Assembly: GCA_046563655.1 (NCBI GenBank)
Contig: CM102288.1
Location: forward strand, 5,890,001 to 5,954,000
Direction of reading: 5' to 3'
DNA from: Yuukianura sp. NJ FZ-2021
Lineage: Eukaryota
DNA: 64,000 nucleotides
Shown here: positions 3,561 to 42,344 of the stretch, piece after piece
Layout of the letters: every line of letters starts with the position of its first letter
Numbering within the stretch: position 1 is the stretch's first letter
Translations under genes and position numbers: made by a program
The notes under the pieces: generated by a model
Told to the model about the DNA's origin: nothing
The model's database searches: none
The model's input: only the letters and a program-made list of their open reading frames with translations

Positions 3561-3563
3561 TAA

Positions 3564-10827: not shown

Positions 10828-10848
10828 TCTTTATTATATTTTATGTAA

Positions 10849-19305: not shown

Positions 19306-22300
19306 TCAGAAATTTTTGCAATTCGTTGAGTCCTCCGGATTTACCGTAAAACTGTCTACTTCATTGCGAATTTTCATACATTCCTGGTTCTCTCCACGGT
19401 ACGGCGTCACAATTCGGCACAAAAAATATTTTCGGCATTCAACCGTATCACACGCAGGAGCATATTTGCTTCCCTTGTTGTAATTCCTGTCGTAAACATA
19501 AGAAAGGTCAAATTCGTGGTAACCAAGGTCGAGCTTTGACATTACCTGTAGTATTTCCTGAAAAGTTGCTCGTCACAACCCATGCGATGGACAAATTCGT
19601 GTAAAGATGCTGCCGAAACATCATTGAGTTCATACTCCTCCGTTGCTTTATACAGTCGGAACCATTCGGGAGCCGAAGTTGCTTCGCTATTGGCCAGTTC
19701 AAGGTCATACACCCACGTTTCATGGTCAACGACGCTGGAAGTATCAGCATCCACTGTATAAATTTTGTAACCAGGGTTGAGATGATCATAGGGCGACAGC
19801 GATGCGCCGATAAAAATGGAACTTATAGGCTGCACATATGTGTTCTGATCATAGTAGATTTGAAATTCATCCCAATGCATGTGTGCAAAGAACTGCGCAG
19901 TGACTGTGTTTCTGTACTGTGTAATGATATTGTAGTAGTTTCTTGCGCATGCGGACCAGGCATCACCCAATCCTAGCGGAAGATGACCAATTACGTGGAC
20001 TTTGACATTGTCACGCTCAGCGTCTTCTAGTTCCTGTATTAGCCAGTGAAACTGATGACCTTGGTCGACGTGATCGTAAATCTGCCAACTAAAAAAAGTG
20101 TAGTGAAGTTTTGGAAATCTTTGAAACCAAGGTTCCTTGACGCCGAAAAATGAATTTTCTTTAACAGGTTGAGTACTACCTCGTTTGTTGACAAAAAAAT
20201 GAAGAAGAAAACAATTGGTACCAATCCAAAAAAACAAATTGGTCCTAATTCGTATGTAAAACTTATAAAATTCTGATGTATTGTTATGACTACGATACCA
20301 TGAAATGAAAGACACTTCATTTTTTTGCAAAATCGAGGTACTACTCAACCTGTTAAAGAAAATAAAGGTCAACAAACCTTGGTTGGAAATTTTTCAAAAA
20401 TTTTTACAATTTTGATGAAAATTACAAGTTCAGTGTGTAGCAGAGGTTGGAGTTGAGCACAATAATTTTTAAAAATGGCGCCATTTGCACAGCATAGTAT
20501 CCGCTTAATTTGAAACTATTTTCAAGAGGAATCCAGTCTTTCCATTGGTCGTAGAGGAAGTTGTAGGCGTGGCTTGTCGAAAGATTTGAAGGCACCCAGT
20601 GAGGACTAAACCTAAAATTTTGAAACAAATTTTTCAAAAAAAAAATCTAAAGCTGTTTTTTTTTTTGAAATTTTTAAACTAGTACAAATTGGAGGGATGA
20701 ACATCGTGATTCCCTATAACCGGGACGATTACTGTGCTGTTTAAGTACTTTCGAATGAGCGTCGATGCTGTTCTGATTACTTTTTCATTCACTTCTTGAC
20801 TAGTGCTGTCCATGTTGTGCGGGACCAAGTCACCAGTTAAGTAAACCAGGTCAATGTCCTGGAAAAACATGCATGTTAGATATGAGCAGGACTTTTTTTC
20901 CACATTTTTTACCGTATGTTCAGTTGCAATATGTTGAAGAGCGTTTTCCAAAGAATTGAGTGGCAAGTCACAAGTGCCATAACTTCCGTAAAGGCCCGCC
21001 ATGTCACTGGTGACGTCATACCCAATGTCGCTGTTGCCATGACAACAAAGGAATCCGTTGCAGTCGGCTGAGCTTCCAACTTTGTAGTCAAGGTCCAAGT
21101 GAATGTCAGTCAATTGGAGGATTTTTATCCGTCGGCGCTAAAGGTTAGAAATTTTGAAACTTTTTAGTTAACCTTTAGAAATTGATGGGTCGAAGTAAAC
21201 TGGAATTTCAACAATTGTAACCAGCGTAACCCTGGGTGTTTAAAAATTTGGTAGAGGTTGTTGCGCTGTTTGGTTACAACCAGGGTTCGAAGGCTGTAAC
21301 TTACGTCCTGTAACTTACGTAACTTACGTACGTAAGTTACGTAATTTTCAGAGGGGTTGTAATTTTCGAAATTTTCATTCTTTTGAATTTTACGCGGGAG
21401 GGAGACAGCGTAGGAGTCAGGGGAGCGGGAGAAGTCCAAAATAACAAAAGAGCAGTGATTGAGATGATTATTTTTTCGGTTTTTTCTCGAGCAGACTGCT
21501 CGAGAAATACCAGGATATTCTTCGAGCAGTCTGCTCGAGAAATACCAGGATATTTTTCGAGCAGTCTGCTCGAGAAATACCAGGATAATTCTCGAGCAGT
21601 CTGCTCGAGAAATACCAGGATATTCTTCGAGCAGTCTGCTCGAGAAATACCAGGATAATTCTCGAGCAGTCTGCTCGAGAAATACCAGGATAATTCTCGA
21701 GCAGTCTGCTCGAGAAATACCAGGATATTCTTCGAGCAGTCTGCTCGAGAAATACCAGGATATTTCTCGAGCAGTCTGCTCGAGAAATACCAGGATAATT
21801 CTCGAGCAGTCTGCTCGAGAAATACCAGGATATTCTTCGAGCAGTCTGCTCGAGAAATACCAGGATAATTCTCGAGCAGTCTGCTCGAGAAATACCAAGA
21901 TATTTTTCGAGCAGTCTGCTCGAGAAATACCAGGATATTCTTCGAGCAGTCTGCTCGAGAAATACCAGGATATTCTTCGAGCAGTCTGCTCGAGAAATAC
22001 CAGGATAATTCTCGAGCAGTCTGCTCGAGAAATACCAGGATATTCTTCGAGCAGTCTGCTCGAAAAATACAAGAATAATTGTCGAGCAGTCTGCTCGAGA
22101 AATACCAGGATATTCTTCGTAGCTTTTCTTCCTGTTGTTTTAACTGGCTGTTGTTGAAATGCCACGAGTCAGAGATCCGATTTGGAACGATTTTGACCTT
22201 GAACCAAACCCGGGCAGTAAGATCCCCTGGGCAAATTGTAAGTTGTGTGATTGGAGACATGCAGGAATCCCGGACAGGATGAAATCACACTTACAGAAAC

Positions 22301-23526: not shown

Positions 23527-25233
23527 GTCGTTCATAAAATAAAAGCAGTATAATTTTTTCTACGGCCAGAAAATGCACACAATTTTCAAATTTTGAAATA
23601 ATTTGTGAAATGTTTGTTACAAAAGTGAAAAAGTTGATGGATTTTGTGCTTAGTTCACAAAACAAAGTTTTACGAGCATTAGTTATCTGCAGAATCTTGG
23701 GCCTATCATTGTAGGTCAAATCAACAAATGAAGGCCATCTCTGTTTCTTGAAAATTTAAAAATTTTTTTTAAAAAGTTGTTTTTTTTTCGAAAAGCTGTG
23801 CTGGGTTTTGGTTTTGCAACCATAACTTATATCTGTATCGATTTACGAACTTATGACTTTGGGGCACTGTGAGATTTTGAAATGTCAATTCAGTCCAACA
23901 GAAGGTGAAACTTCTTTGTTTCCAATACAGAAGTAAATATATTGCGTTTAAATGTCAATCTTTCCACGATTTCTCGAAGTTTACATTTTTTTTACATGTT
24001 GAAGAATGATCTTGTATGATTACTCGACACCCATGTAACTCCGCGAGCAAAATTTTGAATTGCTTTTTTACAGATGAATTGCTTATTGCTTAAAATGATC
24101 TTTACTCAGAACAGATCGGAGTTAACACATGCTCCATCAATTACTTTAATACAAACCAAGTTTATGCAAATCAAACCAATAAAGTGCGTGTTATCGGCAC
24201 TAACTTTTTACGCGTCGAAAAAAATTCACCTTTGTATGCCATTTTTGCAATTTTGAAACAATTTAAAAAAAATTAATGGATTTGGTTTCAGGCTGGATTC
24301 GTATATAGGTCAAGTGATCAGATTGAGGATTTCTGAACACTTTGTTCTTTTGGTTGAAACTTTATCTTTAAACAACAAATATTTTTATAATATATTAAAC
24401 AAATATTAAAAATAATATTGTGTCGCTATAACAACTTGTTTTGTGTTGGATTTCGTGAGACGTGATATGTTCGTGTTCGGACATTTTTCCGGCTCAGATA
24501 CCTTAACAAGAAATTGTATTCGCTGAAGGGAAGATTTAGAAATAGTAGAAAAGCAACTAATTCCTTTAAAGGAGGAAAAAATTTTCGCAGAAAACGTAGA
24601 AACCGGAGTTATTAAACAAACTGTTGTAGAATAAACAAGCGAATTTTTTACCAACCTTGATTTCCATCTTTTTTGTGTTTTACGTTATTTCATTACACAC
24701 TTATGTTCTGAGAGTAAGTTTACAAAATTTTGAATTTTAGGACATCCTCAGTTTTCGTTTTATATTTCGTGAGTGTTAATATGTTTAGAAATTCAAACTT
24801 CAAAAAAATTGTTGCTGCGTGTGAAAGTACTACGAAGCTGTGGTTAACTCGTGTTTAAATTTTTATTGTCTCCAGCTTTGCATTGCCTCTGACCCGTCTC
24901 CTGTCACATGTATTTTAAAAATACCGCGGTATTTCACAACCTTGTAACCAACGAAAATTCAACACACCTTGGATTCAATGTGAAGAAATGAATTGTCGAT
25001 GCAAACAATATGCATACAATGATGCAAACAATAGTGGCGGCAGTTACCAGCATTGCATTTGACCTTCACTTTTAGAACCTATTCAACAGAAGCTTTTGTT
25101 CCAGAATTTCAAAAATATGATCTGGTTATAGTTGCTTAGCGTCAAGAAAGGTTAAAAACAAGGGAAGCGCTGCCCATATTTTTGTGGTGGAATCTTGTGC
25201 GTTATATTTGACATATTCAAACAAATCCAGAAA

Positions 25234-25842
25234 ATGAGGAGTTTTGTTGTCGTGGCGCTGATGGGATTAATCGTGGCAGAAGAGGTTATGTGCGACGACT
25301 TTTTTCTGCTGCAAGGCCTTAAACATGAGGAGGATAAGTTCATTATGAAAGTGGATTTGCCCGAATCTGTTAGAGACGCAGATGAGGCTATTCGTATGGG
25401 CAGAATGAATAAAATGGCTATTGGTATTATCTGCAAAACGAAGGCCCCTTACAACCCCGACTGGAGTTTCCACTTTGGTAAAATACATTAATTCGTACAA
25501 TTACAAATTGCTAGTTTCATACAAAGTGCAGTATGCCATACAATGGAAATGCTAGACCTGTATTACTCCAACTTCTGCATAGTCGCCCTGGGAGTGCACG
25601 GAAATGATGCAGTTCATTCAATTTTTCTAATTGAAATTATTCTGTTTTTCTTTTGAAAACGTCTAGATCCGAAGACTGTTCATTTCACGGACGCTTGCGT
25701 GGAAGTATATGACGCTGCCATGCGTGAGGTGGAGAAGCACTTGAACGAAACAGGAGGTGCGTATCTTCCAGGAAACAAATGGTGTCCATGGGGCGCCTAT
25801 TTAGCGGGCAGAGTGAATCCTCCAAGCTCGAACTCACAATAA
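25234..25842 (+). CDS. Small secreted BP74-N / CaM-BP15-like protein (2 exons)
   Basis: Exons 25234-25477 and 25667-25842 join in frame: signal peptide ... GIICKTKAPYNPDWSFHF|DPKTVHFTDACVEVYDAAMREVEKHLNETGGAYLPGNKWCPWGAYL. The family assignment is from recalled motifs. Confidence 0.78.
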
Positions 25843-26277
25843 TCATACGTTCGACAAAACAAGTGAAGAGCTACGGATTGTTTGCTGTAACTCATATACT
25901 GAACAACCTTGATTACACTGATTTATTTATGGGTGACATCAACGTTGCTTAAATAGGAGTTTTGTTTATTATTTTTTAGTTTATCCCATATCCCATAATC
26001 CCTGTGCGCTATACTTACGCGCTTCCATTACCTTAGCAATCCCAATTGAAAAATATAGATTTCTATAGCAAAAGCGTAAGAAAAAAAACAATATTTTTGG
26101 TGAGACAACAAAATTCGTCTAAAAGGTGTTTTTTTTTCTAGTTTTTTTTTTAATTCGGAGTTATGACGTAACCTCTTACGGCATTTGTACAAATGGCCGC
26201 TATAGCAACGTTGGGGTGACATAAAAAACTATTCTGGGTAAAATTTCCCCAGGGTGATTCGTAGAGGCATGGTAACG

Positions 26278-27878
26278 TTAGGCACCCAAGGCGTCGTTTA
26301 CACAACGCTCTGATACTTCGCGGATTACATTAAAGGCGTCGATTCGTCCACTGCCAAACATATTATTAGGGAATTGATGATCATTTTCACTGTCACAGGA
26401 TTCGTCACTTCCTGCAAAGGTCAGGTTCTGCACAGCATTTGCTGCTAGCACATTTCTTATAAATTCCAAATCTGATGCGGGGCAATTTGATTTCAAAAGT
26501 ACAATAACTCCCGCTACATGTGGACATGCCATTGATGTACCAGATTTAAATTCGTAATCCTCATCACTCCGAATCCCGGCTGAGATGACATTGACTCCAG
26601 GGGCAGAGATGTCAGGTTTCTGTTGACTTTCAAAGAAGGATGGTCCTCTGGAACTAAACCATGCAATCCCATCTTGTGGAGTTGTGGCTGCAACAGAGAT
26701 AACCCCAGCCAGAGAATCAGCCGGAGAGTAAATGGTTCCACATTCTGGCCCACTGTTCCCAACTGCAAACACGGGGATAATATTGGCGGCATGCCATGCT
26801 CTTATCACTGCATCATAGAACTGGTCTCCACCACGGACCCGTCCCCAGGAGTTACTACAAAGGTACAAAGTTACTATAAGTTAGAAAATGTCCGCGTTTA
26901 TTAAAAGACCAAATCAATACGAGAAATATCATATTTGAATTTGATTTTAAATAACCTGACGACTTGTGGAGCCTTTGCGCAATCCTGGTCGCTTCCGTCA
27001 TATTTGTGAGGACAAAGCATGTACTGAGCACAGTCCAGTAGTGCGGACTCCAATGCGCCAAATGGGCCAAACCCCTTGCATGCAATCCACTTGGCACCCG
27101 GAGCAACCCCAATTCCATACCTACTCAAAATTAACTCAAATTGTTATATTATCTTACATGCCAAGCCAAACACTATCGATTACCTGCCAGCGATTGTTCC
27201 TGTTACATGAGTCCCATGTCCCTCAACATCACTTGGGATTTGGCTTTTGAAATACGGGTCATACCACGAGTGAGAATCCCCACGGTAGCTGTCTTTAATT
27301 GCTTCGTGAGTTGATCTTGCACCGGTGTCAATAATTCCAACGGTTATCCCTTCTCCAGTTCCACCAATTCCCCATGCCTCCTTGACCATGATTCTCTCGA
27401 TGCCCCAAACACTGTCCCCAATCTTCCAATCTTTAGAAACTGTAGCATGAATCGGCACATTCAACGGAATTGTGGTTTCTTGATGGATTCCTTTCACTTG
27501 CTCAATTTTTGCCAGCATAGCGATGAGTGGAGCATCGGCAGCCTCAATGTACAGTTGGTTTGATATCCACAAAGATTTTACCTTGACCGAGTTCAACTTC
27601 TCGGATTTAAGAAGAGAGAGAACTGCTGCCTGTGACCTCGTGGCATGCGAGGTCAGCGTTTGGTATACCTCTACTGCGGTGACGCCGGGTTTCTTCGGTT
27701 GTCTTTTCTGTGCCAGACTAGTGAGGACTCCATTCGTATTTTCAAAGGAAACCAAGACATCAACTCTGCCGTTGACCATCAGCGGCTGCGTTACACCAGG
27801 ATCTACTTTCCGCTCAAAACCGAAAGTCAACGCTGAGTTCAAAACTATTCCACAGATTAGATAGAAAATTACTGCCAT
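26278..27878 (-). CDS. Secreted subtilisin (S8A, bacillopeptidase-F-like), 3 exons
   Basis: Exons 27878-27184, 27120-26956 and 26854-26278. Signal peptide, prodomain and catalytic triad IIDTG / GHGTHVTG / SGTSMACPHVAG. Also GVAPGAKWIACKG and PNNMFGSGRID. Confidence 0.92.
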
Positions 27879-28650
27879 TCTACCGATTTCTAGGCACGTT
27901 ATTCAATTTTTGTTAAAGTGTGTACTTGTTCTAAAAAGTGTGAAAATCGCTTTTTGACTTTGTTCGATGCTGTCAGGAATTATATAGGGGACAATTTGTA
28001 GGATTCATTATTTTCCGAGGGCCGAAGTTATGAAAAACGGGAAATTCGTAAAAGTTATGGCTAAATAATAAAAACATCAAAGTCAGAAAATTGTTGCAAA
28101 ACAGTATGGCAAACGCCGTACAGAAAACTGTTAGAATCTTTTATTCCCTCTTTCACTCTTCACTGCATAAATTAACCTCAGTTAGGTTTCTAGAATTGAA
28201 ACATTTAAAAAATTTATAAAAAATGTAAAAAAGTAGTATCACGCAAATTTGATATTTGTGACATGTTGTCACAGAAAACTTTTGCATTGACTGTCACTAT
28301 TAGAAAGGTCAGTTGAAAGTTTAACAATTTTAGACAACGACTTGATAATTTATAAAAAGTAATTGATTAAAGATAAACTAATTGAATGTGTTGTTGGTTT
28401 TAGTAGCATGACATAAGTTATGACTCAGCATATTCCGTATGGCATGGATCTAACTGCAGCATTTTGCTAGTAACAGATTAAAAGGTATTTGACAACTAGT
28501 TGATGAATTGTAGATGGATAAGCTGTTGAAGGTTATCGCAAATTTTAAGTACACTAGTTTAAGGTAAATCCATAGTTGATTATGATTAGTTGTTATTTAA
28601 TCTTTGACGATTCGTTTGTGTTAGCCCAGTAGCGCATGACGATTTCTAAA

Positions 28651-31600
28651 ATGAACTTTTTCCTTTTTGCAGGACTTGCACTGCTGGTGGTACTTGTAGG
28701 GTCATGTGAAGGTAGGGGGCCCTTGATCAAGAGTTTTCCACCGGGACGACTTCCTCCTGCTGGATCGAAATCTGGAGCCCCTTCGGAGCAACGGACAGCT
28801 GAATTCCGGATACCCGATGCCTTGGTACCCACACACTACAAAATCCAACTGCTTCCTGTTTTCTATGACCCCGAAGTGACCGATCCGGTGGGGGAACCAT
28901 GGAATGTTTACGGTAACGTCGAAATTACTCTGGAGTGTCGACAAACTACGAGTGAAATTCATCTGCACGCTTGGGACTTGGCTAACGTCATGAACAATCC
29001 AGACATCCAGGTATGACATAACTTGAATTAGCTGGAAAGTTACAATTACTTTGCAATACTTTGAATTACTTTGACCTTTTAACGGTTAGGTTTTTCCTGT
29101 TGGAGACAACCCGTCACTGATTCCAATTACTTCAACAACTAATCACACACAGGATCCAGAAGTAATTGTGTTCTCACTTGAATCTGAACTTACTCCAGGC
29201 AACCAGTATGTCATCTCCATACCCAACTACATCGGGAACATTCCAGACCACAAGGGCTTCGGAGGAAGGATGAACGGAATGTACCGAACCACCTACGAAG
29301 ATGAGTCGGACCCTCCGGTCGTCAAGTAAGCCCATTGCTCAGGGAGTACCTAGGGTGAGGTTTTAAGGGAGATTCGCATGGCTTGAGAATCAAAGAATGT
29401 CAATACAGAAAAAAAGTATTGAACCCAGTGAGACTCGAACGCAGCTCGCTTCAATCCGGGGAGAGGTCTAACGTCTAACCATTGAGCTATCAGGTTCCAA
29501 ACAGGCTTGGCAAAGGGATTATTGTCAAACGCTACATGAGTTACATTTTTTTTACATTGACTTTTTTGTAAAATTTTTTTCATATGTCGGCTGATGACTA
29601 TGATTTACTTTTGCCTTAGGACAATCGCTACGACACAATTCAGTAAAACCCGTGGTTTCAGAAAACTCGTTCCGTCGTTTGACGATCCAAAGTTCAAGGC
29701 GAAATTTACGATCAGCATTGCACGGCACGACACCTACCGCTCGCTGTCCTGTATGAACAGAGTTAATGGCGAACAAGACGATCCAGTGTAAGGTTTTAAA
29801 ACTTTTGATAACAAAAAAAAAGTTTCATCAGAAACATATAAGCTTAGTTTTGATCTTAAACGAGTTCTGATCAATTTTGATCACAACTTTGAAATGGTGT
29901 TTCAGAGGTGATGATTTTCCGAATTGGTATTGGGACCATTACGCCACTACTCCAGTGATGCCGCCTACTGTCACAGCAATGGTCGTGTACAAGAATGGAG
30001 ATCTGACAGGTCATCCTGCTACGTCCGCAGGACTCGATACTACGGTCAACGTCTGGGGTCCTCCGCATATCATCGCTGGTCAACAAGCCATGTTTTCAGC
30101 GCAAGCCGTCGCAGACTTACTGGCATACTACAACACACACTTCGGTATCGACTACGAGCTGCCCAAGATGGACTCGCTAGGAATCAACCACTTTTACTCC
30201 GGAGCCATGGAGAACTGGGTAAGACTCAATTTGAACCAACTCATTTCGCGGAATTGGAATTTTGAAAAATTCAGCTGAAATTCAACTTTTGGATATATTT
30301 GAAAAATATATTAATCAATTTCGAAATAATTTCAATCTCATTCGGACTTTTTTCTATCCTTTTTAGGGACTCAACATTTACCGAGCCGCATACATGTTCC
30401 ATCACCCTGAGCACGGGACGGAAGCTCTGAAGTTTTCCACTGGACGAGTTGTGGCACACGAGCTTGCCCATCAATGGTGGGGCAATTTGGTGACCCACCA
30501 ATGGTGGAACGACTGGTGGCTCACGGAGGGTTTCGGAACATACTTCAGTTACGAAGCTTTTAACGCAGTATACTCACACTATGCCGCCAAAGTACGCGGT
30601 ATCACTGACGAGCATCAAGATGCATTGGCCTTTGACATCACTCCAGCATCCAAGCCTGTCCACGGAAAAGCTGAAGATACGCTGGAAATCAATCCATCTG
30701 CAATCGACTACAGCAAAGGATCCTCTCTAGTGCGCATGATGAGTGCATTCCTTACTGAACCCGTGTTTACTAAAGGTATCAAGTGGTACCTTGAAAAGCG
30801 GCGGTACCAAGCGGTATCTCAGGATGAACTGTTCGCTGATCTTCAAGAATCTCTGGAAGTTGAGGAACAACCGTCGAATGGAAAGTCAATTGCAGAAATC
30901 ATGGAGGCCTGGACGAAAAAGACGGCGTACCCGGTTGTCCGAGTTTCTAAATCCGAATCGACACCGAATCTGGTCTACTTTTCACAGGAAAGATTCAAGG
31001 TTTTTGAGGAACAAGCTCCGGAAGATGCCGGAGAATCTTGGTACATTCCGATCATGATCCTTTCACAAGCGGTACCGGTTTCGGATAAGCGTGCTCCGGA
31101 TCTCTGGCTCAACCAGGGTATCTCTCTGACCACACACAGCGTCAAGAACAGCGATGACTGGATTCTGGTCAACCCGGAAGCAAGAGGTAACTCACAATTT
31201 TATAACTGGGGGTATCCGCTTTGAGATACCTCCAAGGAAAACGGTGGTACCCCCACAAAAAGGTACCTCTACAGAAAACTGGCACATCAATCGAAAATGT
31301 GGTACCCCAAAGGAAAATGTGGTACCCCCAAAGGAAAATGTGTTACTCCCAAAGGAGAATGTGGTACCTCCAAGGAAAATTGTAATACCTCTACATAAAG
31401 TGGTACCCCTGCAGAAAACGTAGCACATCCGCAAAAAACTGTGGTACCTTTAACAGACAAATGCGGTACCTCCACAGAAAAGCTTGGTACCTCTATAGAA
31501 AACTGATACCTCGTCACGAATACCTTTTGAACAAATTATTTTGCAAAAATGATCACAGTTTCTAATTTTTTCCCTTATTTGCTAGGTTACTATCGGGTAT

Positions 31601-33274
31601 TGTACGATGACCATTATGCGAGACTACTTCAGTTCCAATTGACATATGCATTGGAGACTATTCCAGAAGCCAGTCGAAGTCAACTGATTGACGACTACTT
31701 GACGTTTGCTTTTGAGCAGTACGTCACATTTGACGAAGCAGACAAAATGGTAGGATTCATCAGCAGAGACAACATGCTGGGCAGCTGGATTTCATACTTG
31801 AGACATTTCCGCAAAGCCTACGACCTTCTACGGGAGCCAGCCACCGGAGACTACGACAGATTCAAGGTTTTCAAACTTTTTTGAAAAACTAAAAGACTAA
31901 ACAACTAAAAGCTTAAAAAAACTCTTTTTCAAGATTTTGATTCAATATTTTTTGAAACTTTTCGCAGGCTTACGTTCTGCCCAAAGTGGAAGGCGGCTTA
32001 GCCGTGATCGGATTGGCTGGAGACAACCCTGGAGACTCCATTCAGACGCACATTCTACGCAGTCAGCTCATGGACTGGGCATGTGCAATGGATGATGCGG
32101 AGTGTACGGCTTACGCAGACGAACTTTTTGAGAGCTGGATGAACTCTGGAACTCCGTAATTTCTTTCAATTTTTTATATTTTTATAAATATTTTTTAGTT
32201 GTGTATTTAGTTTCTCACGCTGAAGTTGTTGAGTTAAATCACAACAGAATTAATTCTGTCGTGCTCCACAGGATTCCTGTTGAACTCCGTTCTGTCGTTT
32301 ACTGTCGCGGTGCTGCTACTGATGGTACCCTTCAAGGGGACACGCAACACTGGGATTTCCTTAGATCGAAGTACGTGGAAACAGGAGATGTGCAACTACG
32401 CAGTGCTTTGAGTTGCAGCTTAAACACTTTTAGCCTTGACAGGTAAATCTTGTAATTCCAAATGAATTGTTTTGAAATTGATAGTTTTTTTTTAAAAGAA
32501 AATATTTAAAAAAAAAAATTTTTTAAGCTTGCTCTTAGAAGCTGAGGGGTCAACTGACCCGGAAGAAGGGTGGGCATTGCTGGAAGTGGTTGCTATTAGT
32601 GATCAGAGTCACCGAGCGCAAGTCATCGAATCCCTCACAGCCAATATGCCAACTTATAACGAAAAGTAAGAAAAATTTTGAAATTTGTCTGATGTCAGGC
32701 CTAGAACTTTGTGAAAGTGAAACTTTTCAAGTCAATTGTAACGATGTTTCTGAAATTTTGTTTTTAGTCTTGGGATAGAGGGATTGGTTGACGTGTTTGA
32801 CGCCATGTCGCCATTGGTCCATGATACGGCAGAGATCGATAGTGTGAGTAACCTAAACCCACCGTAGTTAATTGTGTTACTAATAATCTATACAATTAAC
32901 TGATTCCATTTAAATTTACTTATTTATGACGCCTTGTGTTTTAATTTTAATTACTTTTTAGTAACTAGTAGCGAAAGCTACTTTGTGATTGACCTTGTCT
33001 GTCTGTCTGTATATCTGTCTGTGCGGTTTCCTTCCGGGACAAATGCCAACTTTTTTCAACTTTTACTGCAATGATAAGTTTTCTCTTTAAGATTGAAGTA
33101 ATTGTGGAGACATGGATAGATGATAGCATTTTTACGGAAGATGTGCTGGGCAAGTTGAACAGTGCCATCAGCACAATGCGATCCAACACGGGGTGGCTTC
33201 CGAAGTTCCGCCATCGTTTCCTCGTCAACTTCCCCGAAGTACAAGCAGCAAATTCAGAGTTTTGCGAAGTTTAG
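28651..33274 (+). CDS. Aminopeptidase N-like M1 zinc metallopeptidase, multi-exon
   Basis: [25 protein letters not shown] (HExxH-x18-E), YSKGSS and GYYRVLYD. N-terminal signal peptide. The start could be 28636 or 28651. Confidence 0.92.
29377..29497 (-). mobile_element. tRNA-derived SINE-like element (intronic)
   Basis: On the minus strand: A box (TAGCTCAATGG), B-box-like GTTCGAGTC, pairing ends gaacc/ggttc and a T-run. Shares its tail with four other copies. Confidence 0.6.
31208..31512. repeat. Degenerate ~21-bp minisatellite (gtggtaccyc..gaaaa) in an aminopeptidase intron
   Basis: Repeated ggtacc cores with roughly 20-22-bp spacing. Confidence 0.75.
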
Positions 33275-33908
33275 GCTTTGTATACATAGTGTTTGTCAAA
33301 ATTTAAAAAAAATATCAAATATGTCATTGGACGATTCAGAATTCCTTGGAATTTTTTATAAAAACTCATAAATTTTCCATTTTTCACACGGAATTTTTAT
33401 ATTCTGGTTTACTCCGCATAAACACTGAAATTCTGAGAACATCGATAAATTTCATGCATGTTTTTGAGTTTTATCTTTTGTCAACTCACCGCAACTTCGC
33501 ATGATCATTTTAATGTTCGTCAACTTGTTTCCTAAACTAGATGTTGTGACAGGTCATAAATCGTGTCAATTAATTTCCCTTTGAGATCAACTTTTAATCC
33601 AGATCAAATTGGATATTGGTTTTGCACTGGAAAATTTTTGATGATCCAAATTTTGTGGTAATTTATAACAGGGTTCTCAGAATGAACAAAGAAGCGTCTC
33701 ATGATCAATTTGTTTGCAGAGATGCCACCTTGAATAACAACGGTGTTTTAAAGAGTCTTTTGCTAAAAAAAATGTATAAATTCATTAGTCTTTCTTCAGT
33801 CTTTTATAGAATAGGCATTTTGAGATAATTTTTGTATAAAGTTACTAGTCGTTTTGTCATTTTCTAATTCAGAATTGAATTTAAAGTTGCAGAATACTAG
33901 TTTTAGCA

Positions 33909-35038
33909 ATGGATTTTATAAGCAAACTCGTTTTACTCATTGCCCTGACGGGAGTAACTGTCAATGGACAAGGCAAGTCAATTGGAATTTCCTATTTTGG
34001 AATTTCAAAATTTTGAATTTTGAAAAATGTAATTATTGTTAGGATTTTTGTTTTATTAACTGCATAGTTCCAAAGAGAGAAGAGTTTGAGCAAGGAGTGA
34101 CGTCAAACGGGTTTCCGAAGCCGACTGCAGCACAGTACCGTGGTTACGTCAAATCGCTGCGTCAAGGCGGCATTTCCAGAAAGATTGAGGCTGCGATGTA
34201 CCTTGCGCAGACGCTGCACGAATCGGCTGGTCTGCGCACAAAGCGGGAGTTTGGATGTTCTGGCAAAGGGGGCTGCGAGTCCAAGTACCCCGCTGACAAG
34301 GAGTGGTTGGCAGAGTGCAAGGGATCGAATCGACCCAAGGGCATTGGTCAGTTCAATTTAGGCCGAAATTAGGCCGAATTGGTTCGAAAAGCTACAAGAA
34401 GGAGCGATGACTTCACCAAATCATAGCTTGCAATCATTTTCATTACAACACATTAAAAAAAACATTTTCAGTTGATCCACTTCTTTCGAATCTTTCCCAT
34501 TTGAGGCAATTGGTTTCGAACCTTTTCCATTTGAACCAATTTTGTTTAATTTCCAGCCGATAATGTCTGGAACTAATTTTTGAAGCCTTTATTTTTGAAC
34601 CAATTCGGCATTGAACATTTTTATTTGAAGCTATTGGTTTCGAGCCAATTTCTTTGTTGAACCAATTACATGTTTTTTGTGTTAGGTTACTATGGACGAG
34701 GGTACATTCAGTTGACATGGTGCTCCAACTACGTTCCAGCGTCACAGGCTCTGCTGGGAGACAAGGAGAAACTGAAGCATGATCCTGACAGAGTGGCCAT
34801 TTCTGAGGATGTGGCCTGGGGCGTGTCAGGTTGGTTCTGGAAGGAGCGTGTCCACCCTGCTCTGGGCAACAGTGACCAATTTGGACTCACGACCAAGGCT
34901 ATCAATGGACAAACCCAAGAGTGTCAAGGGAACGGACAGAATGCGGACAAGTCCAAGCAACGCTTTCGCTACTACGTTAACGTCTTCAAAGCTTACAAGT
35001 TACAAGGAACACCGAACGAGGCTGGATGTAAATACTAA
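33909..35038 (+). CDS. Secreted glycoside hydrolase family 19 chitinase (3 exons, first intron GC-AG)
   Basis: Exons 33909-33972 (signal peptide), 34068-34346 and 34686-35038. GH19 motifs AAMYLAQTLHESAGL, YYGRGYIQLTWCSNY, WFW and FGLTTKAING. Confidence 0.92.
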
Positions 35039-35305
35039 GACACAATTACATGTAATTACATAATTACATTATTACCTGCGACTGTAACATATGCACTTAC
35101 ATCAATAACTATAAAATTTAAATTCAAAGCGTATTCGTTTTGAAATAAAATATTTAATTGCTCATAAATCTAATTAGCTTAAGTTTACTTTACTCAGCTT
35201 AATAATTCATAGTAACCTCCATATTTTCAAAAACTCAAAACTATAAATATCTTGCTAATTAGCAATATTTTGACCTAATTGACTCAAATCCTCTGCGTTT
35301 TTGCA

Positions 35306-36132
35306 CTAACCATCCCTTTGATGTTCGTCCAGTGCAATGCACATGGACACTATGAGAGCAATGTCCACTCCCGGAGCGATTTCTATCAAGTACTCGTCTG
35401 CTCCTAAGAAAAACGATTTGCTCGTTGTCGGTCTGTAGATTTTGGCGATCGGAGTGCCATCTTGCTTTGGTTCTCCAAGAAAAACCATCGCTTTTTTGTC
35501 TCTCCAATTGCCCTTGAGCACAACAAAGTGATGCCCACCATTCACCGGATTCTTCACATACGCTGATAGCTTGGCTTTCATAAAATTTCGTTCCGTTTTG
35601 AACGTAAACAACTCCCGCTCTGAGTTCCCGCCAGCAAAGACTTTGTATTTGTCTGACATTGCCATGAGCGGCTTCTTCAAGTTGAGCACCGGTTGACCAT
35701 CGATGTCGAGCAGCGTCTTTTTGTCTTTCAAACTAAAAGTTTTGCCGGCACAGCGGAAGTAGAGTGTTCCACTCGCGTCAGCGATTTTGAAATCGTCGCC
35801 GGAGAAAGAGAAAACTTTTTCTTTAAGCTTGAGTTGGACGGAATGCGGGAGACAAAACCGAGGTTCGATTGCACAAACTGGATTCGTTTGAGCAACGATC
35901 TGCTCAACAGAAATAAAAAAACGTGAAATATTTTAGAAGAAATTCTAAACGAGCCTGGATTGTTTCAAAATTTAATTCCAGAACAGATTAGTAAACACAA
36001 GTTGGAAAATGCAACTAAAAGTGGGGAAAATTTGGAAAGGCAAATTGAATTTGAAAAAGAAACTTTTTAAATTTTCCTTCACGAAAATTCTCTCACCTGA
36101 ACGTTTTCGTATTTGGAGTTGTCACCACCCAT
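35306..36132 (-). CDS. LURP-one-related / Tubby C-2 domain protein (2 exons)
   Basis: Exons 36132-36097 and 35899-35306. Motifs LKEKVFSFSGDDFKIAD, KKTLLDIDGQPV, LKGNWRDK and YLIEIAPGVDIALIVSMCIALDE. Confidence 0.88.
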
Positions 36133-36519
36133 TTTCGTAATTCTCAGAAATTATTTGTTATTTTTGAAATTATTTGAAATACTTTGAAAATTCAAATTTC
36201 GAAAACTGCTTATGCTGACGCAGTGATCCCTTCGGAAATTTATAAATACGAATTATGCATGTTGCATTGATCTAATTAGTTAGTACACTAAATTTTACAA
36301 CACTTACACCCACAAAATGTGGGTGATCTGTTGGTATTTACGAGGAGAGACAGGGATGCAGTGAAATGGCGCAGTTTGAATGATAACATTGTGTAGTTTT
36401 AGGATTAAGGTTACGGCAGTTCCTGTCGGATAAGATAACACGATTACACCTTGCAAAAATTATTTGGACATTTGTTCAGGAGCAAAAATGTTTGCTACTT
36501 TATATTTTCCCCGGAGCCA

Positions 36520-36807: not shown

Positions 36808-39002
36808 CTAACGTGGCTTGAAAATATTAAATTGATGTTTAAACTTAAACAACTTAAACCTCAAATTCCATCTGTAAATGATCTCTGCGGTGATAAATTT
36901 GTTACTAACCTTATCCCAAACAACTTCAATAAAAAATACACCGATTGACAGACTTTTAAGTAGAAAGCAAACGATGATGGAGTTTAGCATAGGCGTTCTG
37001 AGGCCCCAAAAGTCCGACGACTGCTCTCTGTCTTTTCTGCCGATTCGTATGGCCTGTCTCTTATCGCCGTCGATATAATTCTTATCCCAGAATCCATCGA
37101 TCCCTGCTGCATAGATACTCAGCATTAAGCGATGATAGGGAGTGCTTAAATAAGAATCATAAGTGTATGCAGTGACCCATCTTTCATCAAAACTTTCTTT
37201 CACCATGTGACAACCGAGATTTTCAAATTTCGGATTTCCCTTGATTTTCAAAAGTTTTGCCGCGGCGAACTTTCTCTCAATCAGTTCCGTGCCGTAGTCG
37301 GCCATGGTCCCTATCGTATTTGAACCGTTTTTGTAAATGTCGACGAAATATTCGTCAGAATTGTTCAAATTTAAATGTTTCTGGAACGCCGGTTCGTAAT
37401 TTGAAACAAACAAGTCCCGCTCTTCTGAAATTATTTGAAATCCATTTTGAAAAAGAGCGGAAACGCTCTCCAGTGAAATTTCTTGAAAAGGGAGAGTGAT
37501 TTCACTGGAAAAATAGGAGAGGTAAGCTTGTTGTAGCACGACAATGGCCAACAGAGACACAAAACGGACCAATGTCACGTTCCTGCTGTGTCCAGGTTGG
37601 CCAAGAAATATCCACAAAGTGTCCATGACATGCATGAACGGAACGTTGCGGATGAAGAGAAAGAGGGAGGACACGCTTAGAAAAAAGAGCGTCCAAGTGG
37701 CGACATCGAAGGGACAGAAAATGGTGTGGACCAGGTTCGAATCCTGGAAAGTTCTTTTTGTTTTGCAGTAAATGAAGTTCATGGAGTTTACAAACATGAG
37801 GGTCATGCTCAATTTGAAACTTGCATCAACTCTCGCCACGTGAGGACTAACTTGCGGCGGGCCACAGTGGTAACAGGCTCGGAATAGAAGGTCATCTCCA
37901 GTATACCGAAATGTTACGTTAAGTTTGATGGTGCAAATTACAAGTAGAATCTCGGCACTGGTTTCGCCCCAAATTCTGAGTCCTTGTGGAGTTTCCGACG
38001 TTTGTGAAATAGACAAGAGATGTGGAATGTATGGCGAAACACCGCCGTAACTCCTACGCGAAGACATTTTGGAAAATTTTGATTCCAGGTCAGCAATGTC
38101 CGTCGGCGGGTCACCAGAGAAAGAATTCCTGTTGGTTCTACGCCAAAAATACCTCCAAGTTGTAGAAAAGCTGGAAGAATAAAAAATGAGAAAGCTTTTA
38201 CGTTACATAACTTACATAGCCTTAGTACATAAAACATAATGTACATTATCAAAACGTAATTAAATTCGTTTACATAAATGACCCACTGCACAAACTAATT
38301 ATCGCCTTCATTTGTTACGTTCGGGAGTCACATGGCTTAACAGACAAAGAACGAGAGTGTAGAAAAAATAAGAGACCGAGTGGGACTTGAACCCACACCT
38401 CCTCTATCGCGGAAGCACTCTAACCGCATTGAGCTATCATGCCACAATTCTGCAACTTCTCGAAGGATGGAACAATTAATGCATAAATTTCACCATTTCC
38501 CTTACATTAGCTACTTGTTACATAACTTATGTAATGGTGTATATGAATTACATTACCTCGTATGTCCAGCTACTGATTCTTCCAAGTACATGACCACAGA
38601 CATTCTTGGATACTGGAATTCATGTCGGTAGTTGGCAAATATTCTCCAAAATTTAGTAGAAATTTCATTATTAAAGGTGACGAAATACAGAGTGCCTTCA
38701 AGGTCATCCAACATGGAGGCTCCCGAGAGGTGTTCAAAGAGCGCACTTGGCGCCCGATAACAGTGAAACAAGCGGATGTTTGATGCCGTTTTGTGGCGCC
38801 ATTTTGCTGATTCTTCGAAACTAATTTGATTGTATTCGTTGTGCCACTGAAGTAATTGCGAATTCAGAGTATTTCGACACCAAGGGGCGCCTATTCCTAA
38901 ACCTTGGTAGATTTCTATCCTACTGGCGGGGAATACTGGAAATAGAGTTGAGTACTGTTGAATCGTAACAGTTAAAAAAATTATTAATTGGGACACCTTC
39001 AT
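36808..39002 (-). CDS. Divergent ionotropic receptor-like membrane protein, copy 1 (2 exons)
   Basis: Exons 39002-38557 and 38170-36808. Signal peptide. M1-like IFCPFDVATW, M3-like VLQQAYLSYFSSEITLP, S2-end AAGIDGFW and a final TM ending GVFFIE. Confidence 0.75.
38329..38443 (-). mobile_element. tRNA-derived SINE-like element (intronic)
   Basis: A box TAGCTCAATG and B box GGTTCAAGTCC on the minus strand. Homologous to 55390-55505. Confidence 0.7.
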
Positions 39003-39908
39003 AATGAATTTTGTTAATAAATATATTATGTATATAACATATAATATACATATGTATATGTATATGTGTATATTAATTGGAGTCAAATATTAATCCAAAG
39101 ATACAGAAACAAGGCCGAGGTAATGTTAAACCCGAACTTAAAAACTGCTCTGAAATGTTTGCAGGCGTTGAAAAATGAGCCTGAATTCTAATTTGGAATA
39201 TTGATTTTTCCTAGATGCTTGATTAGTATAATTAGTGTTACGCCAGAGAGCTCGAAGGTTACATTTTGCACTGGAGGAACAATTCGAAATTACAGTGTGA
39301 CATGCCAAAATTCACGCCCTACGATTTTTAAAGTAAACTTTTAAGTTTCTTCGTGTCTACTTTTCGCTGAGCAACGTCTTTACAGTAATTAAAAAAAAGA
39401 TAAAATTCTGAATTTCGCATGTTAGAGGAACTGAAATTTCCGAACCCTTCCAAATTTTCTGGAACCACCAAAAATAAAAATTTCTGAGACTTGAAACTAA
39501 AAAGTTCGAAGTTGTTCAACAGCTATTAAGAAGTAGCCAAAACTACCTTATAGAGGTTTGTGTTAAAACCGAATTTGAAAATTTTGTGAAATGTTGGCAG
39601 GAGGTTCAAACTTAGGGTGATTTCAAATTTGAAATGTTGATTATTCTTAAGATAAAGATTTATTCAACATTTAACTAAAAACATGCACCTGCCAATGGCA
39701 GGTTGAACCTTGATTATTCTTGTATGCTTGTTTAGTGTTTGTTAACCCCAGAGAGTTCCAAGGTTACATTTTGCTCAGGACGAGAAGTTGAAAAATAGTA
39801 AACAATGTTTAAAGTTAAAATTTTAAAAATAAAATTGTTGCGTTTTGGTACAATGTTAAATTTTGCTTGATAGAGGAAATGAGGACATACAACGATTTAT
39901 TTTCAAAA

Positions 39909-42344
39909 CTAACGTGGTTTAAAAAAACTACATTGATGTTTAAACATAAATAACTTAAACCTTACACTCAACCGGTAAAACAGCTCACTACTAAATTGGC
40001 TGTAAATTTTATCCCATGTAAATTCAACAAAAAATACACCAATTGATAGGATTTGAAGTACAAAACAAACGATGATGGAGTTGAGCATAGGTGTTCTCAG
40101 CCCCCAAAAATCTGATGTTGTATTTCGTTCTTTTGTGCCGATTCGGATGGCCTGTCTCTGGTTTCCATCAATGTAATTCTTGTCCCAGAATCTATCTATT
40201 CCCGCTGCGTACAGATTCAGCATTAAGCGATGATATGGAGCACTTAAATAAGAATCATCAGTGTATGCAGTGATCCATTTTTCATCAAAACTTTCTCTCA
40301 CCATGCTACATGCGAGATTTTGAAATTTCGGATTTCCCTTGATTTTCAAAAGATGTGCTGATCCGAACTTGCCCATGATCAGTTCCGTCCCGTAGTCGGC
40401 CATAGCTGCTGCGCACATAGGGGTTGAACCAATTTTTGACATGTCAACAAAATATTGGTCGGTATTATTCAAATTCAAATGTTTTTCGAAACCAAGTTCG
40501 TTTTTTGAGACAAATACGGACGGGTCGTTTGAAATTATTTTAAAACCGTTTTGAAAAAGATCGGAAACGCTCTCGAGGGAAGTTTCTTGAAAAGGCATAG
40601 TGATTTCACTGGAGAAATATGACAGATAAGCTTGTTGTAGCACGACAGTGGCCAACAGGGACACAAAACGGACCAATGTCACCTTGCTCTTGTGTCCAGG
40701 TTGGCCAAGAAAGATCCACAGAGTGTCCATGACATGCATGTACGGAATATTGCGTACGACCAGAAAAAGAGACATCACGCTAAGAAAAAACAGCGTCCAA
40801 GTGGTTATGTCGAAGGGGCAGAAAATGGTGTGGAACAGGTTCGGTTCCTTGACAGTTCTTTTTGTTTTGCAGTAAATGAAGTTCATGGAGTTTACAAACA
40901 TGAGGGTAATGCTCAATTTTGAATTTTTTGTATCTCCCGCCACGTGACGGTTGATCCACGGTGGACCGTGGTTGAGCCACGGTGGACCGTGGTTCAGCCA
41001 TGGTGGGTCACAGTGGTAACAAACTCGTAGAAGTTCACTTGAAAAAAACGTAAATGTTATGTTGAGTTTGGCGGCGGAAATTATTAGTAAAATGTGGGCA
41101 CTTGATTGGCCCTCAAATGTGAGTCCATTTGGAGCTTCCGAAGTTTCTGATAAGTAAAGGAAATCACCCGTTTGATGAGAAAGTCGGCCGTACCTCGTAA
41201 TACGCGACATCGTTTTGGAAAATTTTGATTCCAGGTCAGCAATGTCCGTGGGCGGGGCACCTGATACGGGATCGATGTTGGTTCTAAGCCAAACATACGT
41301 CCAACTTCTAACAAAGCTGGAAGAAAAAGAAATCAGAAAACATAACTGAATTTAACTGATCCACAGCATACCCGAAGCGTAACTTTACCCGAAGGCGACT
41401 TTACATAACTCACTTCACTTACATCCTTGCATTTTACGAGCAGATTAGTTAACGTACGTGCTCATATAAGTTTATGGAAGTCAACACGCTTACATACAAG
41501 GTTTGTTGATTCTTTAGCAGGTTGGGTACTACTTCATGTTTTCCGAATTTGCCAATAATTTTCCATTTTCATTTCTCTCGTAGTCATAGCAATAAAGTAT
41601 TTTTTTTTTATTTTTACATACGAGTTGGTACCAATTTTTTGGATTGGTACATAGTAAATTGGTAGTATAAAAAAAACTTATAATTTTTTTTTTCGTTTTT
41701 TGTGAACAAGCGACATACCCAACCTGTTAGCGGAAAACAAAACAACAACTTTACGTTGTCAAGGAAACTTGCCAACACAGGTTGTCTAATGCATAGATTC
41801 CACCATTCTCCCACATTAGTTCCATGTTACATAACTTATATGGGCATAGTATATTACATAACTTTTGGAATTTTTACATAAATTACCTCGGAGGTCCAGA
41901 TGCTGACTGATCCCAGTATATAACTACGGACATTCTTGGGTGTTGGAATTGGTGTTGGTACTCATCCTCTTCAAATCTTTTCCAAAATTCAATAGAATTT
42001 TGTTTATTGAAGGTCACAAACCATAAGCTACCTTCAAGGTCATCCAAAATCGAGGCTTCCGATAGCTGTTTCAGGAGGAGACTAATGGTCTGATAACAGT
42101 GAAACCACCGAATGTTTGTTCTTGTTTTGTGGCGCCATTTTCCTGATTCTTTGAAACTAATTTGATTGTGTTCGTTATGCCATTGAAGTAACTGCAAATT
42201 GAAAGTATTTTCACACCAGGGGGTGCCTATTCCTAAATCTTGGTGGATTTGTATTCTACTGGCAGGAAATACTGGAAATAGAGTTGAATAATATCGCCGA
42301 ACCAAAAGTGCTAAAAATATTATTAGCTGTTGTGATACTCTCAT
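39909..42344 (-). CDS. Divergent ionotropic receptor-like protein, copy 2
   Basis: ORFs 41883-42344 and 39909-41210, with the same two-exon structure and TM motifs as copy 1. Confidence 0.75.

What the first reader, a model, noticed from the sequence alone, without database searches (positions are those of the whole stretch)
25234..36132. Cluster of four intron-bearing genes from typically non-animal families: candidate horizontal-transfer island
Seen: within 11 kb lie a BP74-N-like protein, a bacillopeptidase-F-like subtilisin, a GH19 chitinase and a LURP-one protein. They are interleaved with animal-type aminopeptidase N and flanked by sphingomyelinase, IR-like and CYP genes. All four have spliceosomal introns, which argues against bacterial contamination. 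Three have signal peptides. Known: these families are mainly bacterial, fungal, oomycete, plant or amoebozoan. Inference: a domesticated, possibly co-regulated module of secreted enzymes for digesting or defending against fungi and microbes.
Basis: partly seen in the sequence, partly recalled or inferred. Interest (0 to 1): 0.75.

Follow-up and report, generated by a model that had tools for sequence, protein, structure and literature searches.

The report
Four foreign-type genes in springtail-like DNA
Four intact, intron-bearing genes from families that are rare in animals sit within 11 kb of what is most likely a springtail genome, but they look like separate, old acquisitions of a kind already described in springtails, not one transferred or co-regulated block.

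Summary
Between 25234 and 36132 lie four complete genes: a BP74_N protein (139 aa), an S8 subtilisin (478 aa), a GH19 chitinase (231 aa) and a LURP-one protein (209 aa). An M1 aminopeptidase gene lies between them. All six introns are canonical (five GT-AG, one GC-AG). Coding GC3 matches the neighbouring genes, and short-read contigs from two studies bridge some gene pairs, so bacterial contamination is unlikely.

The "island" reading is only partly supported. Three of the four genes have their best named relatives in springtails: Folsomia at 56-72%, Orchesella at 46%, Allacma at 50%. These relatives are multi-copy there. Bacillopeptidase-like S8 genes and GH19-type endochitinases are already published as transferred gene families in Orchesella cincta.

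The four genes point to different source groups: fungus-like for GH19 and LURP-one, bacterial or oomycete for S8, bacterial for BP74_N. Three related metagenome loci that carry LURP-one have none of the other cluster genes beside it. LURP-one has no signal peptide.

Without the genome I could not test whether the clustering exceeds chance. This is a new member of a known kind and of modest interest.

The parts
25234..25842 (+). BP74_N gene, 139 aa with a hydrophobic N-terminus. Exon 1 is 25234-25477, the intron is 25478-25666 (189 nt, GT-AG), and exon 2 is 25667-25842 including the stop.
   Evidence: Pfam matches (both exons above the cut-off, with adjoining profile ranges). Sequence. Intact spliced CDS. 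Both exons align end to end on bacterial BP74_N domains.
26278..27878 (-). S8 subtilisin gene, 478 aa, with an N-terminal signal-like stretch and a propeptide region. Exons are 27878-27184, 27120-26956 and 26854-26278. Introns are 63 nt and 101 nt, both GT-AG.
   Evidence: Pfam Peptidase_S8 on exons 1 and 3. The motifs IIDTGA, HGTHVTG, NSWG and GTSMACPH were read. Intact CDS. 39,075 library proteins match at E <= 0.001.
27879..28635 (.). Spacer of about 760 nt between the head-to-head S8 gene and the aminopeptidase gene; a possible shared promoter region.
   Evidence: Sequence. Contigs of two runs begin at 28343. Promoter function is an inference only.
28636..33300 (+). M1 aminopeptidase (aminopeptidase N-like) gene with many exons. 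It has a signal or anchor N-terminus, the GAMEN and [10 protein letters not shown] motifs, and an ERAP1_C tail. The 3' limit is approximate.
   Evidence: Pfam Peptidase_M1 at 138.8 bits plus ERAP1_C. Motifs read in the translations. Exon boundaries were not worked out.
33909..35038 (+). GH19 chitinase gene, 231 aa, with a signal-like N-terminus. Exon 1 is 33909-33972 (GC donor), exon 2 is 34068-34346, and exon 3 is 34686-35038. Introns are 95 nt and 339 nt.
   Evidence: Pfam Glyco_hydro_19 on exon 3. 32 solved GH19 chains match, the best being 4mck_A at 1.6e-11. Two Glu residues nine positions apart (HES...KRE) are conserved in at least 90% of rows. Intact CDS.
35306..36132 (-). LURP-one (LOR) gene, 209 aa, starting MGGDNS with no signal peptide. 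Exon 1 is 36132-36097, the intron is 197 nt (GT-AG), and exon 2 is 35899-35306.
   Evidence: Pfam LOR at 94.8 bits. Solved plant protein At5g01750 (1zxu) matches at E 4.3e-30. 21 relatives found. Intact CDS.

Best explanation
The window comes from a soil arthropod, most likely a springtail. This is an inference from best named relatives; no native marker gene was tested.

The four genes are long-resident descendants of separate horizontal acquisitions from different kinds of microbes. Since arrival they have gained introns, host-like codon composition and, for three of them, secretion signals. They now sit in one gene-dense neighbourhood around a native aminopeptidase gene.

Likely roles (inferred from family membership):
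- The GH19 enzyme cuts chitin of fungal food or of pathogens.
- The S8 protease is a secreted endopeptidase of the expanded springtail "bacillopeptidase" family and serves digestion.
- The BP74_N protein is a small secreted protein of unknown activity.
- The LURP-one protein is intracellular and probably membrane-associated through N-terminal myristoylation.

Their proximity most likely reflects the uneven, repeat-associated distribution of foreign genes reported for springtail genomes. It does not indicate a co-transferred block or an operon-like module.
For: **Integration (shown)**
- Six canonical introns, intact CDSs, and GC3 of 0.43-0.57 within or near the neighbours' 0.33-0.54.
- Contigs bridge 25080-26497 (X2) and 25268-26536 (X5, a second study and organism label), spanning BP74_N and the S8 3' end. 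A contig spans 34673-35398 (X2), covering GH19 and the LURP-one 3' end. Another spans 35300-36403 (X5).

**Springtail relatives (shown)**
- GH19 exon 3 is 72% and 68% identical to two Folsomia candida proteins and 50% to Allacma fusca.
- In an 18-row tree the window groups with Folsomia at 99/98. The arthropod-plus-fungus clade is split at 100/100 from 6 actinobacterial sequences.
- LURP-one is 56% and 56% identical to two Folsomia proteins.
- S8 exon 3 is 46% identical to Orchesella cincta "Bacillopeptidase F".

**Already published as transferred families**
- The O. cincta paper states that bacillopeptidases expanded after HGT and make up most of the 43 "proteolysis" HGT genes (abstract and passages).
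- Its supplementary table lists them with Pythium ultimum as best non-metazoan hit, and lists "acidic endochitinase SP2" genes.
- Holacanthella has one expressed GH19 gene (passages).

**Different source affinities:**

**No conserved linkage**
- 19 window exon peptides were compared by tblastn with L001-L003. Only the LURP-one exon matched.
- L002 instead carries two tandem LURP-one copies.

**Uneven distribution of foreign genes**
- The Folsomia paper reports that HGT abundance correlates with transposon abundance (rho 0.637; passages).
Against: - Under a uniform scatter, four foreign-type genes of four different families among five consecutive genes would be rare. My own arithmetic uses the published fractions 809/28,734 and 253/20,249. 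It gives about 0.09 and 0.002 expected such runs per genome. Some non-random process is therefore likely, and a hot spot or selection for linkage is not excluded.
- The host taxon is inferred only from the foreign-type genes themselves.
- The S8 tree of 200 rows gave no well-supported clade that holds the window sequence, so its source is open.
- No close relative of the BP74_N gene was found at all, so neither its age nor its origin is known.
- GH19 and LURP-one also occur in a few insects (Culex, Muscidifurax, Bradysia). Vertical descent with many losses is therefore not formally excluded.
- L001-L003 all come from one metagenome, and their LURP-one copies may be paralogues, which makes the synteny test weak.
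Confidence: 0.68

Rival explanations
1. The region is a true hot spot or selected module. It either repeatedly captured foreign DNA or gathered foreign genes by rearrangement, and selection keeps them together with the native aminopeptidase as a gut digestion and defence unit. The S8 endopeptidase and aminopeptidase N would be driven from one ~760-nt bidirectional promoter.
For: - Four families in five consecutive genes is far denser than a uniform scatter at the published HGT fractions would give (my arithmetic on figures).
- S8 and the aminopeptidase are head to head with about 760 nt between their ATGs.
- Three products have signal-like N-termini.
- An endopeptidase, an exopeptidase and a chitinase make functional sense for a fungus feeder.
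Against: - There are no expression data.
- LURP-one is not secreted.
- The gene pairs BP74_N/S8 and GH19/LURP-one are tail to tail and so have separate promoters.
- 3 of 3 related loci lack the neighbours.
- The Folsomia GH19 and LURP-one proteins are recorded on longest contigs of different lengths: 15.5 and 3.5 Mb against 5.5 and 28.5 Mb. This is a weak hint that they are not linked there.
Confidence: 0.17
2. The genes are not horizontally acquired. They are old arthropod or metazoan genes lost in most lineages, and their similarity to microbial proteins reflects slow evolution.
For: - GH19 relatives occur in springtails, a mosquito and a chalcid wasp. LURP-one relatives occur in springtails and a fungus gnat.
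- All copies carry host-like composition and introns.
Against: - The distribution is very patchy.
- In the GH19 tree the fungus Dispira sits in the same unresolved clade as the arthropod sequences.
- The O. cincta study passed its bacillopeptidases and endochitinases through h-score, linkage and phylogenetic tests (methods passages; table rows).
- LURP-one relatives in L001-L003 lack the window's intron, which fits intron gain after arrival.
- A passage in PMC7284397 cites the wasp GH19 as a transfer from microsporidia.
Confidence: 0.1
3. The cluster is an assembly artefact or contamination that joins microbial sequence to animal sequence.
For: - No listed contig spans the S8-aminopeptidase spacer. 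Contigs of two runs start at 28343, and an 11.8-kb contig matches the window only from there on.
Against: - Spliceosomal introns with AT-rich interiors (GC 0.23-0.34) lie inside every one of the four genes.
- Contigs from a second study bridge two of the gene pairs.
- Springtail relatives are annotated in three published genomes.
Confidence: 0.04

Closest known systems
Horizontally acquired "bacillopeptidase" (S8) gene family of springtails (Orchesella cincta genome paper, PMC4987106)
   Same: - It is an S8 subtilisin annotated by best Swiss-Prot hit to bacillopeptidase F.
- The window's exon 3 is 46% identical to an O. cincta member of about the same length, 501 aa.
- Members of the family are intron-bearing host genes.
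   Different: - The window protein is not shown to be an orthologue of any listed member.
- The tree is unresolved.
- The window gene is a single copy here, not part of a tandem array.
GH19 chitinases of arthropods: springtail Cht23 of Holacanthella (PMC5644144), the Folsomia "acidic endochitinase SP2" proteins, and the chalcid-wasp venom GH19 said to come from microsporidia (Martinson et al. 2016, seen only as cited in PMC7284397)
   Same: - It is a short catalytic-domain-only GH19 with a signal peptide.
- It groups with the Folsomia proteins at 99/98, inside a clade with Allacma, Culex, Muscidifurax and the fungus Dispira.
   Different: - The passage read says the wasp-type gene was found in no other animal genome. 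One search shows relatives in springtails and a mosquito.
- I could not read the Martinson paper itself.
LURP-one-related (LOR, PF04525) proteins of plants, e.g. At5g01750 (PDB 1zxu)
   Same: - Full-length similarity at E 4.3e-30 over residues 10-196.
- Pfam score of 94.8 bits.
   Different: - The gene lies in an animal genome, and the product has an N-terminal MG...S start shared with its arthropod and metagenome relatives.
- No function is known in animals.
- LURP-one domains were listed among putative HGT proteins of panagrolaimid nematodes (passage). No paper among the 8 listed links them to springtails.
Clustered foreign genes in HGT-rich invertebrates, such as the repeat-associated HGT genes and the beta-lactam cluster of Folsomia candida (PMC5490193)
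   Same: - Foreign-type genes sit next to native genes in a springtail-like genome.
- A 35-nt satellite and other multi-copy segments lie nearby.
   Different: - The Folsomia beta-lactam cluster is one pathway from one kind of donor. Here the four families are unrelated and show different source affinities.

Membership tests
Glycoside hydrolase family 19 | Match to the family profile above the curated cut-off | tested here: met
   Exon 3 scored 37.8 bits against a cut-off of 25.5. 32 solved GH19 chains match at E <= 0.001. Exon 2 alone matched neither Pfam nor PDB.
Glycoside hydrolase family 19 | Two catalytic glutamates (which residues are catalytic is recalled, not taken from a call) | tested here: met
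   E51 (in HES) and E60 (in KRE) of exon 2 are conserved in at least 90% of 12 aligned rows and lie nine residues apart. Their assignment as the catalytic pair rests on recall.
Peptidase S8 (subtilase) | Profile match and the Asp/His/Ser triad with the oxyanion Asn | tested here: met
   Pfam scored 38.2 and 100.9 bits. The motifs IIDTGA, HGTHVTG, NSWG and GTSMACPH are present. The motif roles are recalled.
Bacillopeptidase F proper (Bacillus Bpr) | Orthology and the long multi-domain architecture (about 1,400 aa, recalled) | tested here: not met
   The window protein is 478 aa. Bacillus-group loci match exon 3 at only 34-38%. "Bacillopeptidase F" is a best-hit label used in the springtail annotations, not evidence of orthology.
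LURP-one-related (PF04525) | Full-length profile match and similarity to the solved plant member | tested here: met
   94.8 bits over profile positions 4-186 of 187. 1zxu matches at E 4.3e-30.
BP74_N (PF23621) | Profile match over the whole domain | tested here: met
   The two exons cover profile positions 10-61 and 61-112 of 114, both above the cut-off. They align end to end with 8 bacterial domains.
BP74_N (PF23621) | Conserved EVCD...WCPW cysteines seen in the bacterial members | tested here: inconclusive
   WCPW is kept. The first Cys is Tyr in the window (EVYD), and a Cys lies three residues upstream. The role of these residues is unknown.
Co-transferred genomic island | Common donor for the genes | tested here: not met
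   The nearest non-arthropod relatives differ by gene: a fungus for GH19, a chytrid for LURP-one, bacteria and unnamed metagenome proteins for S8, and an actinobacterium for BP74_N.
Co-transferred genomic island | Linkage conserved in relatives | tested here: not met
   0 of 3 related LURP-one loci carry any of the other 18 window exon peptides tested. The test is weak because all three loci come from one metagenome and may hold paralogues.
Co-transferred genomic island | Composition distinct from the host, or mobile-element borders | tested here: not met
   GC3 lies within or near the neighbours' range. Repeat scans of 19-40 kb found a satellite, a microsatellite and short arrays, but no flanking long terminal or inverted repeats around the cluster.
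M1 aminopeptidase (aminopeptidase N-like) | Peptidase_M1 and ERAP1_C domains with the GAMEN and HEXXH-E motifs | tested here: met
   Pfam results. The motifs [16 protein letters not shown] and WLTEGF were read in the translations. Its "animal-type" origin was not tested by phylogeny.

The most novel reading that the evidence does not exclude
This 11-kb stretch is a hot spot for foreign genes. Genes from at least three kinds of microbes (fungus-like, bacterial or oomycete-like, bacterial) came to lie around a native aminopeptidase. Selection keeps them linked as a secreted feeding and defence unit, with the foreign S8 endopeptidase and the native aminopeptidase N sharing one bidirectional promoter.

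A second thread concerns LURP-one. The fungus-gnat (Bradysia) copy nests among springtail copies (96/96). This suggests arthropod-to-arthropod transfer like that published for terpene synthases.
Probability: 0.15. Interest if true: 0.6.

Novelty: new member of a known kind. Interest (0 to 1): 0.33.

Why it matters
Springtails are one of the animal groups richest in genes acquired from microbes, and such genes are thought to help them feed on fungi and decaying matter. This locus adds a clean example. Four unrelated foreign-type genes, each intact and fully adapted to the host, sit around one native peptidase gene.

Two of the families, LURP-one and BP74_N, did not turn up in the springtail papers and tables that I could search.

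If the proximity proved to be conserved or co-regulated, it would show that animals can assemble functional gene neighbourhoods from foreign parts of different origin. As it stands, the locus mainly confirms a known pattern.

Tried and rejected
- **Whole genome:** none is held, so HGT density, a permutation test and synteny within the genome could not be done.
- **RNA evidence:** no RNA holder was listed among the 5 runs found, so splicing and co-expression were not tested.
- **Read laying:**
  - No listed contig spans the whole stretch.
  - None of the listed pieces covers 27998-28343 (the S8-aminopeptidase spacer) or 33183-33691.
  - An 11.8-kb X2 contig and a 1.7-kb X1 contig match only from 28343 onward. 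This is unexplained; it could be a repeat edge, a structural variant or an assembly limit.
- **BP74_N relatives:**
  - The word-index search with exon 2 (longer proteins) found none among 2 candidates.
  - Two Atlas searches gave no usable hit; the best score was 0.82, in the range that shuffled sequences reach.
  - The literature search for "BP74" returned only unrelated uses of the string in the 10 papers listed.
  - A structure prediction of a bacterial BP74_N domain from a 10-row alignment gave mean pLDDT 54.3. I did not take it to a fold search.
  - Pfam on bacterial BP74_N proteins and their neighbours gave no functional clue.
- **S8 source:**
Its 80 loci match at 32-52% over best segments.
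  - The 200-row FastTree gave no well-supported clade that includes the window.
  - Two name look-ups of 20 proteins gave only one organism name close to the window protein (O. cincta) and one bacterial MAG.
- **"IR-like" flank:** no Pfam or PDB support. The resemblance is by eye only.
- **Earlier findings of this scan:** four look-ups returned nothing.
- **Supplements:**
  - The two Folsomia files held none of six terms.
  - One O. cincta file was not searchable.
  - Supplement access was closed, so the metazoan HGT compendium's tables were not seen. These tables may list LURP-one or BP74_N genes.

Full report
**What is there**

The window is AT-rich eukaryotic DNA (GC 0.376) with short introns and densely packed genes. 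No whole genome is held for it.

Pfam scans of the long open frames gave this gene map:
- Six tandem F-box genes on the minus strand at 0.5-18.6 kb.
- An acid-sphingomyelinase-like gene at 19.5-21.1 kb.
- A 35-nt satellite at 21.5-22.1 kb.
- The cluster in question.
- Four tandem ~460-aa ORF genes with no family match at 36.8-50.2 kb.
- Cytochrome P450 exons at 51.6-59.6 kb.

Within 25234-36132 lie five genes. I read their exon models.

| Gene | Strand | Length | Introns |
|---|---|---|---|
| BP74_N | + | 139 aa | 1 |
| S8 subtilisin | - | 478 aa | 2 |
| M1 aminopeptidase | + | not modelled | many exons |
| GH19 chitinase | + | 231 aa | 2 (first has a GC donor, AAG\|GCAAGT) |
| LURP-one | - | 209 aa | 1 |

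A script confirmed that all four spliced coding sequences are in frame, have no internal stops and end in a stop. The two BP74_N exons match adjoining halves of the Pfam profile (positions 10-61 and 61-112). They also align end to end on bacterial domains, which independently supports that splice. The "IR-like" label has no Pfam or PDB support, and the signal peptides were judged by eye only.

**Are they host genes?**

Yes, as far as these data go.
- The introns are AT-rich (GC 0.23-0.34) and canonical.
- GC3 of the four genes (0.43-0.57) overlaps that of the neighbours (0.33-0.54).
- Short-read contigs from two studies under two organism labels cover the region. They bridge BP74_N to the S8 3' end (25080-26497 and 25268-26536) and GH19 to the LURP-one 3' end (34673-35398). 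They also cover the whole LURP-one gene with its upstream region (35300-36403).
- The listed pieces do not cover the S8-aminopeptidase spacer, and several contigs begin at 28343. This remains unexplained.

**Whose genome, and how old are the genes?**

The named relatives point to springtails.
- *GH19:* Exon 3 is 72% and 68% identical to two Folsomia candida proteins and 50% to Allacma fusca. It is about 50% identical to proteins of Culex, of the chalcid wasp Muscidifurax and of the fungus Dispira (11 hits among 97 candidates).
- *GH19 tree:* In an 18-row tree the window groups with Folsomia (99/98). This group sits inside an arthropod-plus-fungus clade that is separated at 100/100 from six actinobacterial GH19 sequences. 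In 301 sampled genomes of that phylum, 10 had a match, at 36-44% identity.
- *LURP-one:* It has 21 relatives among 98 candidates. The best is a 77% metagenome protein. Two Folsomia proteins and one Bradysia coprophila protein are at 56%, and a chytrid protein is at 47%. The solved plant protein At5g01750 matches at 4.3e-30.
- *S8:* Exon 3 finds 39,075 library proteins at E <= 0.001. None is closer than about 54% among near-full-length hits. One of the top hits, at 46%, is "Bacillopeptidase F" of Orchesella cincta. A Thermodesulfobacteriota protein reaches 53%. The tree is unresolved.
- *BP74_N:* No close relative was found. The family occurs in 14 of 301 and 9 of 301 sampled genomes of two bacterial phyla. 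Three of the 14 are unpublished genomes. The window's exons are 34% and 41% identical to one actinobacterial gene.

**What is already known**

- The Orchesella cincta genome paper reports 253 transferred genes. It states that bacillopeptidases expanded after transfer and dominate the 43 "proteolysis" HGT genes (abstract and passages).
- In one part of its supplementary table I read 20 rows (Ocin01 gene ids) annotated as bacillopeptidase F, each with a Pythium ultimum best hit. The term search also showed "acidic endochitinase SP2" genes in the same file.
- The Holacanthella paper reports one expressed GH19 chitinase (passages).
- The Folsomia paper reports 809 foreign genes (2.8%). Of these, 330 have an orthologous HGT gene in O. 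cincta, and their abundance correlates with transposon abundance (passages).
- LURP-one and BP74 did not occur in the supplementary files that could be searched. LURP-one occurred in none of the 8 papers listed by a LURP-plus-springtail search.
- LURP-one domains are listed among putative HGT proteins of panagrolaimid nematodes (passage).

**Is it an island?**

The evidence is against a co-transferred unit.
- The four genes have different nearest non-arthropod relatives.
- Their families are multi-copy in other springtails.
- Two gene pairs are tail to tail with separate promoters.
- In the three related loci recovered from a metagenome, none of 18 other window exon peptides is found beside LURP-one. 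One of those loci carries two tandem LURP-one copies instead.
- Those relatives also lack the window's intron, which fits intron gain after arrival.
- LURP-one has no signal peptide and starts MG..., as most full-length relatives do, so "a module of secreted enzymes" covers at most three genes.

On the other side, a uniform scatter at the published HGT fractions would give only about 0.002-0.09 such runs per genome (my arithmetic). The proximity is therefore probably not pure chance. The known repeat-associated clumping of foreign genes is the simplest explanation, but a hot spot or selected linkage remains possible. The head-to-head S8 and aminopeptidase pair, with about 760 nt between the ATGs, is the one arrangement that could give real co-regulation.

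**Function**

- *GH19:* It keeps two conserved glutamates nine residues apart and the YYGRG..QLTW core, so an active secreted chitinase is likely.
- *S8:* It keeps the Asp, His, Asn and Ser motifs, so an active secreted protease is likely.
- Both fit digestion of fungal food or defence, as proposed for springtail HGT genes in the papers cited. This is inference.
- *BP74_N:* Its activity is unknown. The structure attempt failed (pLDDT 54.3).
- *LURP-one:* It is probably a myristoylated intracellular protein. This is inferred from the N-terminus.

**Verdict**

The phenomenon is known in springtails, and two of the four families are already in print as transferred. The island or module interpretation is not supported, though it is also not excluded.

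Noticed in passing
window 502-18568, minus strand: Six tandem genes, each with one long ORF of 441-514 aa that begins with an F-box (Pfam F-box-like, E 5e-8 to 6e-5).
   Followed up: partly
window 21487-22119: A 35-nt satellite of about 18 copies at 93% match, with a partly self-complementary unit. It lies between the sphingomyelinase gene and the cluster. The summed contig depth there is two orders of magnitude above the surroundings, so the unit is multi-copy in the sequenced samples.
   Followed up: partly
window 36808-50169, minus strand: Four tandem genes with ~460-aa ORFs match no Pfam family (E <= 0.1), and the one sent to the solved-structure search matched no chain. By eye the order of hydrophobic segments and a QAYLSYFSSEIT stretch resemble ionotropic receptors. 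They may be a very divergent receptor family.
   Followed up: partly
proteins P0007-P0011 and P0017 (relatives of window 35306-36132): The LURP-one protein of the fungus gnat Bradysia coprophila groups with the two Folsomia candida copies (96/96 in a 22-row tree). The same pairing of Sciaridae with soil arthropods has been published for terpene synthases as intraphylum transfer (PMC11665903, abstract).
   Followed up: partly
window 28343: Contigs of two runs begin exactly here, in the S8-aminopeptidase spacer. An 11.8-kb contig of run X2 matches the window only from here onward. It may be a structural variant, a repeat edge or an assembly limit.
   Followed up: no
L001:1928-2554, L002:9950-10582, L003:457-1086: Metagenome relatives of the LURP-one gene are encoded without the intron that splits the window's gene after codon 12. 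L002 carries a second, 44%-identical copy about 500 nt downstream.
   Followed up: yes
window 45840-45884 (-), 38372-38443 (-), 55436-55504 (-): Rfam reports a histone 3' UTR stem-loop (34.1 bits against a gathering score of 34) and two tRNA matches (34-35 bits). No histone ORF was confirmed beside the stem-loop.
   Followed up: no
window 31222-31502: A degenerate 21-nt tandem array (consensus unit GAAAATGTGGTACCCCCAAAG), apparently in an intron, lies between two aminopeptidase exons. It creates spurious open frames on both strands.
   Followed up: no
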